From IMG/VR virus record IMGVR_UViG_2718218453_000005: a stretch of 48,452 nt of DNA; one strand, written 5' to 3'. The position numbers and the translations under genes were made by a program. Below the pieces are notes generated by a model, which searched no databases, was not told the DNA's origin, and saw nothing but the letters and a program-made list of their open reading frames with translations. Below, one piece after another: positions 33,696-37,328 of this stretch. The DNA comes from a virus. Lineage: Duplodnaviria > Heunggongvirae > Uroviricota > Caudoviricetes. Every line of letters begins with the position of its first letter. Within the stretch, counting starts at the first letter, position 1.

Positions 33696-36600
33696 CTATG
33701 TATCTGAGCCAAACATAGAGCGCCGCCTTGTTATTTTATAATAAGTGGGATTTTCATTATCCACCTCAAAATCAGAGAAGAAGTGGTTATCTCTTAATGC
33801 TGTTAATAAACTTTGATTAGTTGAATCAACTTCAATTTTAGGTTTGCCTCGCCCCAAAATTTTACTGAACTCCGATAAACCAAGCAGATCAAGATACTCT
33901 TTGCAAGTCGTCTTACTCAAATCCTTACCCGGCAACAAAGCGATTAGCAGTGCTATTTTATTCTGCATATTCAGTCCCTCTGCGACAAACAGGTTTTTTA
34001 GTAACGGTTCAGAAACATCATTAGGACTTGCTATCAATGCTGATATATCCTGTATTGCTCGACTCAAGATGAGCGACTGAGTAGAGGTTCCCCAAGTTTT
34101 ATAAGATGACGTCAAGATTAGAAGTTCATCTGGTTTAAAATTATTTTCTAAAATATAGTCATTAACGACCTGAGAGTAATTCTTACTATAAATAGCCAAC
34201 GGAGTTTTAACAAACTCGAGTAGCTTAACTTTCAAATCATCATCAACTTTCCAAGAAAGTATTGATATAGCCTCATCCAAAATAAAGTTATCAATCGTCA
34301 TTAATTCAACGTATGCCCTGATATTCTTATGAATATAATAGGAAAGTTGCTCTGAATAGTTATCTCGTATGAAATTAAGTGGCGCAACATTCATACGAAT
34401 AATATTTTTATCCACTAATATTTTGAACTTATCACTCGCGATATTACTAGCGCTAAAGGATGTTTTACAAATAATATTTAGTGAGCAAATTAATTTTTCA
34501 TATTTATCATTTGATAAATCATTACAGATAACAATCGATTTAAATAATTTACCTTTAAGCTCGTTATCAATATTAATATTTTGAAAATTCAGGTCTACAT
34601 CAGTTCTATTGATAAATTCGATAAGTGAGTCATCCAGTCCATCAACATGTTCAAAATAAGAGACAATATTTTCCTCAGAGCACACTGCTCTATCTTTATC
34701 CAACAAAGATGACCATAAAGATTCGCTCTCAACCTCACTCAGAGATGTCACGAAAGTTTGCAAAGCGTTTATATACTGGCCTTTTTGTTCATCAGATATT
34801 CCCTCATTATTAAGAACGGATAAAACAATGGATTCATCATCCACGATTGAACCATCACAACTAGATAAAACCATATCCAGATAGTCCCTAATATGGTTAT
34901 TAACATAACTAGCCAAGGGAGAATCAGGTTGTGACATCACTAGTGTATAGTTCTTATGGCGAATATCATCTTCACTATTAAGCGTGTAAACCTTACTCAG
35001 CATTAAGGTCAGGTTGGAAAAATTAATATCATAAAGTGAATGCTGGTAAACCGCATCAAAGAGTACTTTATTTGCGTTTTCAAATTTAATACTGACAAAA
35101 GAGACGTTAAGCAACTTAAAACCACTAATTAATTTGTCAACCTTCGGTTCTGATATTGCTAAATAACCTGCCGAATCAGAGATGTAATCAGTCAGACAAT
35201 CATCAATATTAATGGCCTCGATGGCGTCATTGGCAGAATAATAAAACGTGCCTATAGAGTAGAGTTTAACCCAATCAGCAGAAAATTCACTCTCTGTCAG
35301 CGCATAAGAAAAAAACTCAGGCCACTGTGTATTTAATCGATTAATGAAGACAGGCTGAGCCCTCTCAGTTTCAAAGTAACCACGAATAAACTCAACTCTT
35401 CTATCTTTTCTTAGTTGTTTGAATAAACGTTTTATTAAGTTTACCTGGGCTGGCGTTTGAAGCAGATAAGCTAATAAATCAAAATTAAGCGCCTCTTCCT
35501 GTTCAAAATCCACTTCTCGAAGGCGGGCAACGACCAGCTTGGGGTTCTTGAGTTGATAAGTGAACTCTTTGCCTTTTTGATCGGTAATGCTGCGTAAAAA
35601 CATCTTATCAATTCGACTCAGGCTATTTTCATAAAAATAGGTCATATAGTCGGTATAGGTTTCATCAATATAACCATCACGAATAAGGTATTTAAGCAAG
35701 TCAAAATACTCACTGCTTTTTATTTCATTAAAGTCTCTTTCCTCTCCAATTTCATTGGTATAGGTGAGTTTAAATATTTCATCAATGTTTTCTCTAGTTA
35801 TTACTTCTTTAAGTCTTTTGTTTCTAGAATCAACCAAACTTTCTCTTGATCTTGATATAAGCTCATTAATTTCTTCTATTTTACCATTAAATTTATTTTC
35901 AACACTTTCTTTTCTAGCCGCCCTTCTCTTTGCTATATCAGCTTTCTCAGCCTGATTATAGTGAGGATGATTATTATATCTAGATAATTCCTTATCGTAT
36001 ATAGCATCAACCTCCTGACTAGAGTTGAGTATTTCATCATTGATTGCCTCAATCTCTTTTTTTCTATCTCTAATATCTTTTTCTATTTTCTTTATTTCTT
36101 CAATAATAAGGTTGTCTTTTTCACTAAATATGGTATAAACCATACCTTGATTAAGTTGCAACTCACTAAAATCTCTTGGGAAAATATTCTTATAGGCAAT
36201 AATGGCCAACATTTTATTACAGTCAAGTTCTGTCGTGTTTAATTTGTTATAATAAATTTGAAATTCGTTATAAATATTCTTCAATATTCTCATATCATCA
36301 ATATATAAAGACATCCCTTGTAGAAATCTTTCATTGAACAACTTGAGAATACCACCACCATCAAAATGTGTGATAAACTGATCGTAAGAGTTAGAACTAT
36401 CAACAACAGGAATAACTGGAATGATATAATCAAAGAATTTGGTTCTATCCTTCGAAATGAAGATATCATCACGAAGCAAGTAAATAAAACGTAACGTCGA
36501 TTTCTTGTGCCCTGCTGTGTCCCGTTGAATATTAACCAGTCTGTTAACCTCATGAAGACGTTCAAAGATGTTATTACTATTAAAACGGTCCATGTCTTCA

Positions 36601-37328
36601 AAAACAATGGCATCAGCATCAACGTTCTCGAAAAGGTACAATACTTCATTTAAATATCTATCGAAATAAGACTCGTTACTTTCTTCAAAAATCTCTATTT
36701 CATTACCCTGTAAATTTATTTTCTTAAGAACATTACGATTCTTTTGGGTTTTTATTAACTTGTAAATGAAAATACAAGATAGGATAGTACATATAAACCC
36801 ACTAATTAAAAGCGTATCGTATTTAGTTGATAATGTAAGTAGTGTCTTTATATTACCTTCAGATAAAAGTGAAACAAACTTTTCCCACTTATTAAATAGC
36901 GTGATATGTAGTATCATGGCGATAAATAACACCGTAAAGATGGTGTTTATCACAATGTTGTTAGTTTTTATTTTTTTCTTTACTTTAAAATGTGTCTGGG
37001 GAATATCATCAGCATTAATTTGGTGAATTAACTGGTTAAGAACTTTACCTTCTAACGCGGTTTCATTTATATCTTTACTTGGTTCATTAGTTTCAGCTTC
37101 CTCAATCGATCTGAAATGAGCAAGTGAGATATGAACAAACTTTATATTTGAATGACTTTTCTTATAGGATTCGATAAGACTACTTTTTCCTGCGCTATAT
37201 TGCCCTGATATCGCAACATTTTTTAGATCGTTATTGGCAAAAACAAAATCTATCGCATTTTTATATACACCCAGCTCAACATCGCTGAACGGCGTTAACT
37301 TTTGAAATTTATAGCTATCATCACTCAT
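33696..37328 (-). CDS. KAP-family / YobI-like transmembrane P-loop NTPase (candidate anti-phage defence protein)
   Basis: 1210 aa; Walker A-like ISGQYSAGKSS, two hydrophobic helices inserted before Walker B-like AIVFEDMDRF; long helical C-terminal region; AT-rich; own SD and terminator. Confidence 0.8.
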   Translation of the reverse strand: MSDDSYKFQKLTPFSDVELGVYKNAIDFVFANNDLKNVAISGQYSAGKSSLIESYKKSHSNIKFVHISLAHFRSIEEAETNEPSKDINETALEGKVLNQLIHQINADDIPQTHFKVKKKIKTNNIVINTIFTVLFIAMILHITLFNKWEKFVSLLSEGNIKTLLTLSTKYDTLLISGFICTILSCIFIYKLIKTQKNRNVLKKINLQGNEIEIFEESNESYFDRYLNEVLYLFENVDADAIVFEDMDRFNSNNIFERLHEVNRLVNIQRDTAGHKKSTLRFIYLLRDDIFISKDRTKFFDYIIPVIPVVDSSNSYDQFITHFDGGGILKLFNERFLQGMSLYIDDMRILKNIYNEFQIYYNKLNTTELDCNKMLAIIAYKNIFPRDFSELQLNQGMVYTIFSEKDNLIIEEIKKIEKDIRDRKKEIEAINDEILNSSQEVDAIYDKELSRYNNHPHYNQAEKADIAKRRAARKESVENKFNGKIEEINELISRSRESLVDSRNKRLKEVITRENIDEIFKLTYTNEIGEERDFNEIKSSEYFDLLKYLIRDGYIDETYTDYMTYFYENSLSRIDKMFLRSITDQKGKEFTYQLKNPKLVVARLREVDFEQEEALNFDLLAYLLQTPAQVNLIKRLFKQLRKDRRVEFIRGYFETERAQPVFINRLNTQWPEFFSYALTESEFSADWVKLYSIGTFYYSANDAIEAINIDDCLTDYISDSAGYLAISEPKVDKLISGFKLLNVSFVSIKFENANKVLFDAVYQHSLYDINFSNLTLMLSKVYTLNSEDDIRHKNYTLVMSQPDSPLASYVNNHIRDYLDMVLSSCDGSIVDDESIVLSVLNNEGISDEQKGQYINALQTFVTSLSEVESESLWSSLLDKDRAVCSEENIVSYFEHVDGLDDSLIEFINRTDVDLNFQNINIDNELKGKLFKSIVICNDLSNDKYEKLICSLNIICKTSFSASNIASDKFKILVDKNIIRMNVAPLNFIRDNYSEQLSYYIHKNIRAYVELMTIDNFILDEAISILSWKVDDDLKVKLLEFVKTPLAIYSKNYSQVVNDYILENNFKPDELLILTSSYKTWGTSTQSLILSRAIQDISALIASPNDVSEPLLKNLFVAEGLNMQNKIALLIALLPGKDLSKTTCKEYLDLLGLSEFSKILGRGKPKIEVDSTNQSLLTALRDNHFFSDFEVDNENPTYYKITRRRSMFGSDT

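What the first reader, a model, noticed from the sequence alone, without database searches (positions are those of the whole stretch)
33696..37328. Prophage-borne 1210-aa KAP/YobI-type transmembrane P-loop NTPase: candidate single-gene anti-phage defence
Seen in sequence: the ORF has a Walker A-like ISGQYSAGKSS near residue 45, two hydrophobic helices (IVINTIFTVLFIAMILHITLF, LLISGFICTILSCIFIYKLI) at about residues 125-190, then a Walker B-like AIVFEDMDRF at about residue 240. A membrane insert between Walker A and B is the defining layout of KAP-family NTPases. It is followed by about 950 residues of helical sequence with no motif I recognise. The gene is much more AT-rich than the flanking phage genes and has its own SD/ATG and a strong terminator (33643..33674). 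Established knowledge: KAP NTPases include PifA (F-plasmid exclusion of T7) and the Tmn defence gene; Bacillus YobI is a ~1200-aa prophage-encoded member. Inference: a horizontally acquired abortive-infection or exclusion gene expressed from the lysogen.
Basis: partly seen in the sequence, partly recalled or inferred. Interest (0 to 1): 0.85.

Follow-up and report, generated by a model that had tools for sequence, protein, structure and literature searches.

The report
Prophage Tmn-like defence gene cassette
A Rac-like E. coli prophage carries an untested, distant relative of the proven Tmn anti-phage membrane ATPases, and the gene sits in a 4.1-kb cassette bounded by two conserved 24-base palindromes that also flank many other defence systems in phage and island hotspots.

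Summary
ORF 33696..37328 (-) encodes 1210 aa with Walker A, two membrane helices, then Walker B. Its GC is 33%, and it has its own Shine-Dalgarno sequence and terminator.

It is a full-length member of the YobI/Tmn family: Pfam YobI-ATPase E=8e-123, PADLOC Tmn E=1e-66. It does not hit Pfam KAP_NTPase. All NTPase-domain residues whose mutation kills Tmn-25 are conserved. The AlphaFold model shows the Tmn layout: AAA+/STAND-like core, coiled coil, then a HEAT/ARM-like solenoid.

It shares only 25-28% identity with validated plasmid Tmn proteins, and only in the N-terminal part. It is therefore a new, untested member of a known defence family. NCBI already names it "YobI family P-loop NTPase". 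Its phage trigger is unknown.

The gene travels as a 4130-nt unit between unrelated loci: three in E. coli, plus Klebsiella, Serratia and Pectobacterium. The unit is bounded by two palindromic sites: B (GTCCGCTy-TGTGCCAG-rAGCGGAm) and A (GTCCGCTy-yTCGCTCA-nAGCGGAC). The same site pair flanks CBASS in another prophage, and a B site precedes Gabija, Septu and Old elsewhere. Which half of each site follows the locus and which follows the cargo fits recombinase-mediated cassette exchange. That model is inferred, not shown.

The parts
37637..37660 (-). Left cassette boundary, 'B site': GTCCGCTT TGTGCCAG AAGCGGAA (8-bp inverted arms around an 8-bp asymmetric spacer)
   Evidence: DNA homology with six other copies of the cassette in unrelated loci starts here. 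The same site precedes a CBASS cassette in the same prophage slot. It is the only B site in window 30-41 kb.
37410..37418 (-). Extended -10 promoter-like element TGCTATAAT, 82 nt upstream of the ATG and inside the cassette
   Evidence: Read from the sequence. Conserved in 5 of 6 cassette copies. The consensus scan did not call it because there is no -35. Function not tested.
37334..37342 (-). Shine-Dalgarno-like GGGAAGGGA, 5 nt before the ATG
   Evidence: Read from the sequence.
33696..37328 (-). CDS, 1210 aa, YobI/Tmn-family transmembrane P-loop NTPase (identical or near-identical to WP_001278661.1)
36135..37265 (-). YobI-ATPase domain, residues 22-398 (split NTPase with membrane insert)
37182..37205 (-). 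Walker A GQYSAGKS, residues 42-49
   Evidence: G47/K48 correspond to Tmn-25 G66/K67, whose mutation abolishes defence.
36900..36965 (-). Transmembrane helix 1, residues about 122-143
   Evidence: Hydropathy. Helix in the model.
36741..36821 (-). Transmembrane helix 2, residues about 170-196
36585..36611 (-). Walker B and EDxDR motif (AIVFEDMDR), residues 240-248
   Evidence: D245/R248 correspond to Tmn-25 D276/R279. Invariant in 56 relatives.
35499..36119 (-). 'Proximal arm': coiled-coil helices (residues about 404-502) plus a small alpha/beta domain (about 515-610)
   Evidence: AlphaFold model. The family profile of this region hits validated plasmid Tmn at 58-62 bits, colinear; shuffled controls score 5 bits or less.
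33789..35483 (-). 'Distal arm': alpha-solenoid, residues about 616-1180, the presumed sensor
   Evidence: pLDDT is mostly above 90. The best, weak Foldseek matches are HEAT/ARM proteins. Profile similarity to plasmid Tmn is weak but colinear: 21.5 and 12 bits, against 4.4 or less for shuffles.
33643..33674 (-). Intrinsic terminator-like hairpin plus T run
   Evidence: Conserved in all copies checked.
33528..33551 (-). Right cassette boundary, 'A site': GTCCGCTC TTCGCTCA AAGCGGCC
   Evidence: Homology with other cassette copies ends here. The right arm and flank are shared with the CBASS-carrying prophage. It is the only A site in this part of the window.

Best explanation
The gene encodes a divergent member of the YobI/Tmn family of single-gene anti-phage defence proteins. 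It is carried as accessory cargo ('moron') of a Rac-like prophage and protects the lysogen.

**Shown here.** The protein has the complete Tmn architecture:
- a cytoplasmic P-loop NTPase split by a two-helix membrane hairpin;
- a coiled-coil proximal arm;
- a long ARM/HEAT-like solenoid.

The residues essential in Tmn-25 are conserved.

**Inferred from the Tmn-25 work (a preprint).**
1. The protein assembles into a membrane-anchored oligomer.
2. The solenoid arm binds a phage protein made during infection.
3. Binding stimulates ATP turnover.
4. That drives Mg2+ loss and ATP collapse, cytoplasmic shrinkage (plasmolysis) and arrest of phage replication.
5. The ATP collapse may also wake up ATP-depletion-sensing systems such as Gabija or Septu.

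The arms, especially the distal solenoid arm, are highly diverged from tested Tmn proteins. The trigger and phage range are therefore expected to differ and are unknown.
For: **Family assignment**
- Pfam YobI-ATPase E=8e-123 over residues 22-398, full profile.
- PADLOC Tmn E=1e-66.
- BLASTP to plasmid 'anti-phage transmembrane ATPase' proteins: 25.6% identity over residues 4-612 (E=5e-55) and 28% over residues 8-403 (E=2e-47).
- A profile built from 99 full-length relatives hits both plasmid Tmn proteins colinearly: N-domain 283-289 bits, proximal arm 58-62 bits, distal arm 21.5 and 12 bits. The best of 400 shuffles scored 6 bits.

**Functional residues**
- The counterparts of Tmn-25 G66/K67, Y262, D276/R279, N297, K325/F326 and R374 are G47/K48, Y231, D245/R248, N266, K297/F298 and R347. 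All are present.
- They are invariant or nearly invariant in 56 relatives.

**Structure**
- AlphaFold model, pLDDT 81.8, with the expected domain order.
- The solenoid resembles HEAT/ARM proteins.

**Context**
- Tmn defence, the Walker A requirement and sensing through the arms are reported for five variants.
- The cassette carries only this one gene and is intact in unrelated contexts.
- The same prophage slot holds CBASS in other strains.
- Sister cassettes hold Gabija, Septu and Old.
Against: - No experiment bears on this protein.
- Identity to any tested Tmn is below 30% and detectable only in the N-terminal half by pairwise comparison.
- The best stretch of the PADLOC match covers only profile positions 27-474 of 1273. 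I could not establish whether the published Tmn census (PADLOC-based) counts this clade.
- The mechanistic model rests on one preprint with an 11.6 A map.
- The model has pTM 0.41, so the relative placement of its domains is not reliable.
- Expression in the lysogen is not shown.
Confidence: 0.78

Rival explanations
1. It is a KAP-family NTPase in the sense of PifA. That would make it an exclusion protein of the KAP clade rather than a Tmn-type protein.
For: KAP NTPases have recently been shown to defend in Enterococcus (PMC13552941).
Against: Pfam KAP_NTPase (PF07693) gave no hit at E<=1, while YobI-ATPase scored 411 bits. The only other PADLOC hit is a 24-residue P-loop match to LeoA. The literature separates YobI/Tmn from KAP.
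Confidence: 0.04
2. The protein serves the prophage or the cell in a role other than anti-phage defence. Examples: a membrane ion-homeostasis ATPase, an addiction/toxin module that stabilises the element, or a factor used in the phage's own lytic cycle.
For: Function is untested. Cassettes bounded by the same sites can carry non-defence cargo, such as a TonB-dependent receptor plus ABC iron transporter in CFT073 and QueH in the prophage slot. The gene lies next to a hok/sok toxin-antitoxin locus.
Against: The whole family architecture and the catalytic residues match a family with five experimentally protective members. The gene is found outside prophages, in islands and at bare chromosomal sites, so it is not tied to a phage life cycle. 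It is absent from 50,697 deposited phage genomes.
Confidence: 0.12
3. The gene is a decaying passenger with no current function.
For: One of the 32 E. coli copies is interrupted by IS5/IS903-type elements (H10). Two viral-contig copies appear frameshifted or split, and a third hit covers only residues 1-722.
Against: 31 of 32 complete-genome copies are at least 99% identical at the DNA level across the 3.9-kb query spanning the gene. Homologues of 92-97% identity and identical length occur in six other genera. 2173 cluster representatives share the C-terminal 810 residues. Motifs are invariant.
Confidence: 0.05

Closest known systems
Tmn (transmembrane NTPase) defence system, e.g. Tmn-25 of E. 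coli ECOR25 and the F/IncI-plasmid 'anti-phage transmembrane ATPase' (WP_231828659.1, WP_001144732.1)
   Same: Single gene of about 1200-1270 aa. YobI-type NTPase with two membrane helices between Walker A and B. The same essential residues. Coiled-coil proximal arm and ARM/HEAT-like solenoid distal arm. Located on mobile elements.
   Different: Only 25-28% identity, confined to the N-terminal half in pairwise comparison. 1210 aa against a median of about 1270 aa. Carried on the chromosome in a prophage or island rather than on a plasmid. 33% GC, with full-length relatives at 36-52% identity in Fusobacterium and Ruminococcus. Phage range and trigger unknown.
Bacillus subtilis YobI (namesake of Pfam PF20693)
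   Same: Same Pfam family and similar length class, by the family definition.
   Different: Not compared directly here.
KAP NTPases (PifA of F, Kidins220/ARMS, Enterococcus EF_KAP)
   Same: Membrane-associated signalling P-loop NTPases fused to variable C-terminal regions. Some defend against phages.
   Different: No Pfam KAP_NTPase match. The literature treats them as a separate family.
STAND/Avs and AAA+ initiator ATPases (Cdc6/ORC, NB-ARC, NSF-D2)
   Different: No membrane insert in those proteins. No sequence-level relationship was found.
For the cassette: integron gene cassettes, pdif (Xer) modules of Acinetobacter plasmids, and engineered recombinase-mediated cassette exchange with heterospecific lox/FRT sites
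   Same: Small promoter-bearing or promoterless gene units without their own mobility genes. Bounded by short palindromic recombination-type sites. Found in arrays and moved between replicons.
   Different: Here the sites are 24 nt (8+8+8) of two types, B on the left and A on the right, in direct orientation. They are not 57-141-nt attC sites. No IntI or XerC/D-type site similarity was seen by eye. The apparent crossover is inside the palindromes rather than at G|TT. The enzyme is unknown. This comparison rests on my own knowledge of those systems and was not tested with IntegronFinder.

Membership tests
YobI family P-loop NTPase (Pfam PF20693) | Match to the YobI-ATPase profile above the gathering score | tested here: met
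   410.9 bits against a cutoff of 27, profile positions 1-363 of 363.
YobI family P-loop NTPase (Pfam PF20693) | Two transmembrane helices inserted inside the P-loop domain, between Walker A and Walker B | tested here: met
   Walker A at residues 42-49, helices at 122-143 and 170-196, Walker B at 240-248.
Tmn defence system | Match to the PADLOC Tmn model | tested here: met
   PDLC02220, E=1e-66, 223.7 bits, two stretches; the best covers profile positions 27-474 of 1273. Whether PADLOC's own coverage thresholds are passed could not be checked.
Tmn defence system | Residues required for Tmn-25 defence in the NTPase domain (G66/K67, Y262, D276/R279, N297, K325/F326, R374) | tested here: met
   G47/K48, Y231, D245/R248, N266, K297/F298 and R347 are present, with matching spacing relative to plasmid Tmn. 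They are invariant or nearly invariant in 56 relatives.
Tmn defence system | C-terminal proximal coiled coil plus distal ARM/HEAT-like solenoid | tested here: met
   AlphaFold model. HEAT/ARM proteins are the best Foldseek matches, all weak with E of 3e-3 or more. Colinear profile hits to plasmid Tmn arms.
Tmn defence system | Self-contained single gene without a conserved operon partner | tested here: met
   The 4.13-kb conserved unit holds one ORF. Its neighbours differ in seven contexts.
Tmn defence system | Decameric membrane complex; ATP- and Mg2+-linked plasmolysis on phage sensing | not testable with these tools
   Reported for Tmn-25 only.
Tmn defence system | Protection against phage infection | not testable with these tools
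   No experiment. Support comes only from family membership and neighbourhood.
KAP NTPase (Pfam PF07693) | Match to the KAP_NTPase profile | tested here: not met
   Not among hits at E<=1.
Integron gene cassette (for the mobile unit) | attC site of 57-141 nt with R''/L''/L'/R' boxes, boundary at G|TTRRRY, and a linked IntI in the array | tested here: inconclusive
   The sites are 24-nt palindromes. A-18 nt-B composites begin with AAC and end with GTT in several loci and can fold into one long hairpin. But homology between contexts breaks inside the palindromes, not at G|TT. No integron integrase was seen in the held flanks. IntegronFinder was not run.

The most novel reading that the evidence does not exclude
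The YobI/Tmn gene is one cargo of a previously undescribed, widespread cassette system in Enterobacterales. The system may explain how defence genes are swapped between hotspots of unrelated mobile elements.

**The two sites.** Units of 0.6-5.8 kb are bounded on the left by a 'B' site (GTCCGCTy TGTGCCAG rAGCGGAm) and on the right by an 'A' site (GTCCGCTy yTCGCTCA nAGCGGAC). These are two palindromes with the same 8-bp arms but different asymmetric 8-bp spacers.

**The pattern.**
- The outer arm of the A site follows the locus at all three hotspots compared, whatever the cargo. The hotspots are the Rac-like prophage slot DUF977|hok, a CP4-like island slot, and the P2 Z/fun slot.
- The outer arm of the B site follows the locus at the first two slots. 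At the P2 slot it also varies.
- The inner arms follow the cargo.

**The reading.** This is what crossovers within both spacers would produce. It would be a natural version of recombinase-mediated cassette exchange with heterospecific sites.

**A candidate enzyme.** A 200-aa tyrosine recombinase with a catalytic domain only (WP_001305361.1). It is itself carried inside some of these cassettes and is present in 16% of complete E. coli genomes.
Probability: 0.4. Interest if true: 0.85.

Novelty: new member of a known kind. Interest (0 to 1): 0.5.

Why it matters
**The gene itself.** It adds an untested, deeply diverged clade to a defence family whose specificity is thought to lie in the variable arms. 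It is chromosomal, prophage- and island-borne, and spread at 92-100% identity over at least seven enterobacterial genera. It is a natural candidate for finding a new phage trigger and for testing whether the plasmolysis mechanism is general. That is useful but not surprising.

**The cassette boundaries.** These matter more. A 2026 survey of P2 and P4 hotspots concluded that defence loci are swapped extremely fast, also with unrelated elements and 'cryptic' chromosomal sites. [quoted passage not shown]

A conserved pair of palindromic sites flanks Tmn-like, CBASS and candidate defence cassettes (HEC-08, DUF3800), and a B site precedes Gabija, Septu, Old and NsnA-like systems. These occur in lambdoid and P2 hotspots, satellites and islands. 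A small recombinase is linked to some of them. Together they give that question a concrete, directly testable molecular candidate.

Tried and rejected
- **NCBIfam and PHROGs** gave nothing useful for the protein.
- **Deposited phage genomes** (INPHARED) hold no copy.
- **AFDB Foldseek** was not available.
- **Foldseek against PDB** gave no hit at E<=1e-3. A sequence profile against PDB gave none at E<=0.1.
- **Tmn-25 numbering.** I first tried to map Tmn-25 residue numbers directly onto the pEC_L8 protein. The numbering did not fit. It was resolved by motif spacing, with an offset of +2.
- **Clade assignment.** The supplementary tables of the Tmn preprint are not held. I could not place this protein in its clades Ia-IX.
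- **Earlier readings of the cassette ends, considered and dropped:**
  - a 7-bp direct repeat GTCCGCT as a lambda-type overlap region: the flanking arms are not conserved between cargos;
  - IS200/IS605-type subterminal hairpins: no TnpA was found, and the small ORFs next to a Gayadomonas (L026) site are DUF5713, NUDIX and an unmatched ORF;
  - a structured RNA: no Rfam hit at E<=1, and the stems are conserved in sequence with few compensatory changes;
  - a terminator: no T run;
  - CRISPR repeats, REP, ERIC and dif: no resemblance beyond short words (my own recollection of those consensus sequences).
- **Literature.** A search for the motif as text found nothing. Three keyword searches found no description of such sites.
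- **Empty site.** No strictly empty site was found in the Rac-like slot among 5426 genomes. The smallest occupant is about 250 nt, between a B-like and an A-like site.
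Full report
**1. The observation**

The window holds an ORF at 33696..37328 on the minus strand, ATG start, 1210 aa.
- Walker A, GQYSAGKS, lies at residues 42-49.
- Exactly two strongly hydrophobic segments occur, at residues 122-148 and 170-193.
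- AIVFEDMDRF lies at residues 240-249.
- Basic clusters sit before the first and after the second hydrophobic segment (sequence printed). That places both halves of the NTPase in the cytoplasm.
- The gene is 32.8% G+C, in a prophage whose 1-kb windows are mostly 44-53%.
- A nine-pair hairpin followed by a T run lies at 33674..33643, 22 nt after the stop codon.
- A GGGAAGGGA Shine-Dalgarno-like sequence ends 5 nt before the ATG.
- The consensus scan found no -35/-10 pair upstream. An extended -10, TGCTATAAT, lies at 37418..37410. It is kept in five of six copies of the gene from three genera, and the terminator is kept in all.

**2. What the protein is**

Family scans:
- Pfam gives YobI-ATPase (PF20693) at E=8e-123 over residues 22-398, covering the whole profile. 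KAP_NTPase is not among hits at E<=1.
- PADLOC gives Tmn at E=1e-66. The best stretch covers residues 9-439 against profile positions 27-474 of 1273.
- NCBIfam and PHROGs give nothing.
- NCBI's pipeline already names the identical protein WP_001278661.1 'YobI family P-loop NTPase' in some genomes and 'hypothetical protein' in others.

What the literature says about Tmn:
- Tmn is an experimentally validated single-gene defence.
- A 2026 preprint (PMC13001434) describes it as a YobI-family transmembrane NTPase and separates it from KAP/PifA.
- It reports ten clades, five variants with distinct phage ranges, and a decameric membrane complex with a coiled-coil proximal arm and an ARM/HEAT-like solenoid distal arm.
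- It reports direct activation of Tmn-25 by T2 RIIB, then ATP turnover, Mg2+ export and reversible plasmolysis.
- It also reports loss of defence on mutating G66/K67, Y262, D276/R279, N297, K325/F326 and R374.
- A 2025 paper describes phage anti-Tmn proteins and escape through nmad5.

**3. How close it is to tested Tmn**

- tblastn against 72,556 plasmids finds 629 records. In all but two records only the N-terminal third of the protein aligns, and every match is below 60% identity; in the sampled rows the E. coli and Klebsiella plasmid matches are about 28% identical. They include genes annotated 'anti-phage transmembrane ATPase'.
- I took two of these for comparison: an IncI/K plasmid gene of 1271 aa, and the pEC_L8 F-plasmid gene of 1264 aa that sits next to a Gabija-like pair.
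- BLASTP gives 25.6% identity over residues 4-612 and 28% over residues 8-403, with nothing beyond residue 645.
- The C-terminal 810 residues alone retrieve 2173 cluster representatives at E<=1e-3 from the 50%-clustered library. Full-length hits place them after an N-terminal part of about 400 residues; shorter hits look like fragments.
- A profile built from 99 of those hits both plasmid Tmn proteins colinearly: 283-289 bits for the NTPase, 58-62 bits for the proximal arm, and 21.5 and 12 bits for the distal arm. The maximum over 400 shuffled controls was 6 bits.
- Motif spacing shows that Tmn-25 numbering equals plasmid-Tmn numbering plus 2. All the essential NTPase-domain residues have counterparts here: G47/K48, Y231, D245/R248, N266, K297/F298 and R347. 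They are invariant or nearly invariant in 56 relatives that are 36-97% identical to the query.

**4. Structure**

An AlphaFold2 model of residues 11-1210 was built with that 56-sequence alignment. It has mean pLDDT 81.8 and pTM 0.41. In protein numbering it shows:
- a five-stranded alpha/beta core;
- two long helices at residues 122-143 and 170-196;
- four long helices at 404-502;
- a small alpha/beta module at 515-610;
- an uninterrupted helical solenoid at 616-1180, with pLDDT mostly above 90.

Structure comparisons gave these results.
- Foldseek against PDB has no hit at E<=1e-3. Its best weak hits are HEAT/ARM proteins such as condensin Ycg1/CAP-G, the PP2A A subunit and importins.
- No solved relative exists by sequence profile.

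**5. Where it sits and how common it is**

- The window is essentially one Rac-like lambdoid prophage next to ttcA. Its gene order runs: intR, xisR, ralR/RalA, recT, recE, kilR, sieB, cI/cro, ydaT, a replisome organiser, a DUF977 gene, then the YobI gene. After it come hok/sok, a DUF1971 gene, DUF1367/1364/1133 genes, lysis genes, trkG, terminase, head and tail genes.
- 32 of 5426 complete E. coli genomes carry the gene, all on chromosomes. 31 copies are at least 99% identical at the DNA level, and one is interrupted by IS elements.
- Homologues of 92-97% identity and the same length occur in Shigella, Klebsiella, Serratia, Yersinia, Enterobacter, Pectobacterium and Morganella.
- Full-length relatives at 36-52% identity occur in Fusobacterium, Cetobacterium and Ruminococcus. 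This fits the low G+C content.

**6. Most likely function**

The best-supported reading is that this is a Tmn-type defence protein expressed from the lysogen or island. By homology it would act as a membrane-anchored sensor-effector. The solenoid arm would recognise a phage protein. The NTPase would be switched on. ATP and Mg2+ homeostasis would collapse, and phage replication would be arrested.

The steps shown here are family membership, architecture, conserved catalytic and coupling residues, and single-gene autonomy. The steps inferred are oligomerisation, trigger binding, plasmolysis and any synergy. The arms, especially the distal solenoid arm, are highly diverged from tested variants, so the trigger cannot be predicted.

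My confidence is about 0.95 for membership, about 0.75 for defence, and about 0.5 for a Tmn-25-like mechanism.

**7.

*A discrete unit.* I compared the window with the loci that encode the 92-95% identical proteins. These are a Klebsiella island, a bare chromosomal site in Serratia liquefaciens, and an int-AlpA-primase satellite in Pectobacterium. DNA homology starts at window 37660/37659 in all of them and ends at 33530-33545, with unrelated flanks.

Within E. coli the same 4130-nt unit, 99.9% identical, is also found in two further places:
- a CP4-like island next to Ag43 and a GTPase gene (strain 165);
- near ydeP-ydeT, followed by an ABC-three-component gene (strain 2018-02-2CC).

The unit contains no recombinase.

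*The two sites.* The ends are two related 24-nt palindromes in the same orientation:
- B on the left: GTCCGCTT TGTGCCAG AAGCGGAA;
- A on the right: GTCCGCTC TTCGCTCA AAGCGGCC.

They are the only such pair in this part of the window.

*Other cargo in the same prophage slot.* In other lambdoid prophages the slot between DUF977 and hok starts with the same B site and ends with the same A right arm, but holds different cargo:
- a CBASS pair (cyclase 477 bits, 2TM effector 281 bits) plus an integrase fragment;
- a 195-aa ORF, QueH, or about 250 nt of non-coding DNA.

*How widespread the B site is.*
- An exact 18-mer of the B site was scanned across one genome per species. My own arithmetic puts the chance expectation at about 70.
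- 43 of those loci carry the extended left arm as well. They are mostly Enterobacterales but also include Alteromonadales, Nevskia and Alphaproteobacteria.
- The genes after those sites include Gabija (GajA 1276 bits, GajB 1018 bits), Septu (PtuA 651 bits, PtuB 385 bits), Old (255 bits), a NucC-like nuclease, NsnA-like GmrSD_N proteins with HEPN, DUF3800 and DUF2971. Some are housekeeping-like neighbours.
- A 20-specified-base B pattern has at least 119 exact occurrences in IMG/VR contigs, again capped. I estimate fewer than one by chance.
- Those occurrences have about 70 different downstream sequences and a handful of recurrent upstream flanks.
- In 67 of 122 cases an A site follows on the same strand, at 0.6-5.8 kb. 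The distance is 4131-4133 nt for four YobI copies.

*Arrays.* Arrays of the form B-cargo-A-18 nt-B-cargo-A occur in two places:
- the Z/fun hotspot of a P2-like prophage;
- a CFT073 island. There one cassette holds the candidate defence gene HEC-08 (575 bits), a 200-aa tyrosine recombinase and an ETEC_3214-family gene. The next cassette holds a TonB-dependent receptor with an ABC transporter.

**8. A model for the cassette, and its limits**

I read the sites as 8-bp arms around 8-bp spacers. The outer arms then go with the locus and the inner arms go with the cargo.
- The B left arm is GTCCGCTT in both cargos of the prophage slot. It is GTCCGCTC in both cargos of the island slot.
- The B right arm plus the following bases are AAGCGGAA gttagaaatt wherever YobI is the cargo.
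- The A left arm plus spacer are gcgagc GTCCGCTC TTCGCTCA wherever YobI is the cargo (in E. coli).
- The A right arm plus flank depend on the slot, whatever the cargo. They are AAGCGGsC tagaagg in the prophage slot, CAACGGAC cttcagctcagcc in the island slot, and AAGCAGAC tgtcagattt in four P2 prophages with four different cargos.

This is the pattern expected if exchange occurs inside both spacers. The two spacers differ, so this would be cassette exchange between heterospecific sites rather than excision and integration.

A candidate enzyme is the 200-aa tyrosine recombinase.
- It has only a Xer-like catalytic domain.
- It is 92-96% identical in four genera.
- It lies inside such cassettes in a CFT073 island, in a P2-like hotspot and in three other loci.
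- It is present in 863 of 5426 E. coli genomes but is not in this window.

Evidence that weakens or limits the model:
- In the Klebsiella and Pectobacterium copies the A right arm is unrecognisable.
- One P2 B site shows both arms changed together.
- The stems are conserved in sequence with few compensatory changes, which argues for protein binding rather than a hairpin.
- Short-homology recombination by phage recombinases (RecET/Red) at these 24-nt anchors would give a similar pattern.
- No experiment exists.
- I did not run IntegronFinder.
- I cannot exclude that the sites are described in literature outside the searchable library. Four searches found nothing.
- The latest survey of P2/P4 hotspots states that the exchange mechanism is unknown.

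**9. Verdict**

The gene is a new, untested member of a known defence family. It is already annotated at family level, so on its own it is of moderate interest. The cassette and its two conserved boundary sites are the part worth following up.

Noticed in passing
window 37660-37637 (B site) and 33551-33528 (A site); also L010, L137, L138, L140-L144, L030, L079 and viral loci L145-L263: Two conserved 24-nt palindromes with identical arms and different spacers bound the YobI cassette and many other cassettes in lambdoid and P2 hotspots, satellites and islands. Other cargos of such cassettes, or found just after a B site, include CBASS, Gabija, Septu, Old, NsnA-like, HEC-08, DUF3800 and an iron-uptake cassette. 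The arms follow locus or cargo in the way cassette exchange would predict.
   Followed up: partly
L137 6342-6944 (CFT073); L143 7657-8241; L084 5617-6222; L096 3389-3994; L117 281-886: A 200-aa tyrosine recombinase with a catalytic domain only (WP_001305361.1 and relatives, 92-96% identical across genera) lies inside some B...A cassettes. It is present in 863 of 5426 complete E. coli genomes. It is a candidate cassette recombinase. It is not encoded in this window.
   Followed up: partly
window 33046-33216 (-) and hok CDS about 32923-33048 (-): A hok/sok type I toxin-antitoxin locus (Rfam sok, 101 bits) lies directly downstream of the cassette. The A site right arm is continuous with the conserved DNA upstream of hokD (the sequence between the A site and hok) in more than 1400 E. 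coli genomes.
   Followed up: partly
window 32487-32840 (+): A DUF1971 (TehB-like) ORF lies on the opposite strand in a second AT-rich patch (GC 0.37), between hok and the DUF1367 gene. It may be another accessory gene.
   Followed up: no
window 46718-46896 (-): RalA antitoxin sRNA (Rfam, 225 bits) next to ralR, as in Rac. Together with sieB, kilR, recET and trkG it marks the prophage as Rac-like and rich in other accessory and exclusion genes.
   Followed up: no
NZ_CP126348.1 (strain NN5), hit H10: One E. coli copy of the gene is split by IS5-like and IS903B-like insertions. This is the only disrupted copy among 32 complete genomes.
   Followed up: no
L002-L004 13813-15051 (Klebsiella): An IS110-family transposase gene starts 30 nt after the right end of the cassette. 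IS110/IS1111 elements often target palindromic sites, so it may have inserted into the missing A right arm.
   Followed up: no
L005 about 13828 (Serratia liquefaciens): A second B-like site follows the YobI cassette after about 45 nt. It precedes a 103-aa ORF and a stand-alone thymidylate-kinase-like gene. CTGACAG is repeated on both sides of the cassette.
   Followed up: no
L034, L071, L074, L093, L108, L121 (Catenovulum sp. 2E275); L026 (Gayadomonas): The B site plus an identical stretch of about 40 nt recurs at least six times in one Alteromonadales genome, often at contig ends, with different downstream genes (DUF3800, DUF2971). This looks like a large cassette array outside Enterobacterales.
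   Followed up: partly
L013 (NZ_CP084075.1, Fusobacterium vincentii): The record that holds the 36%-identical full-length homologue is filed in the plasmid collection but is 2.1 Mb long. It is evidently a chromosome labelled as a plasmid.
   Followed up: no
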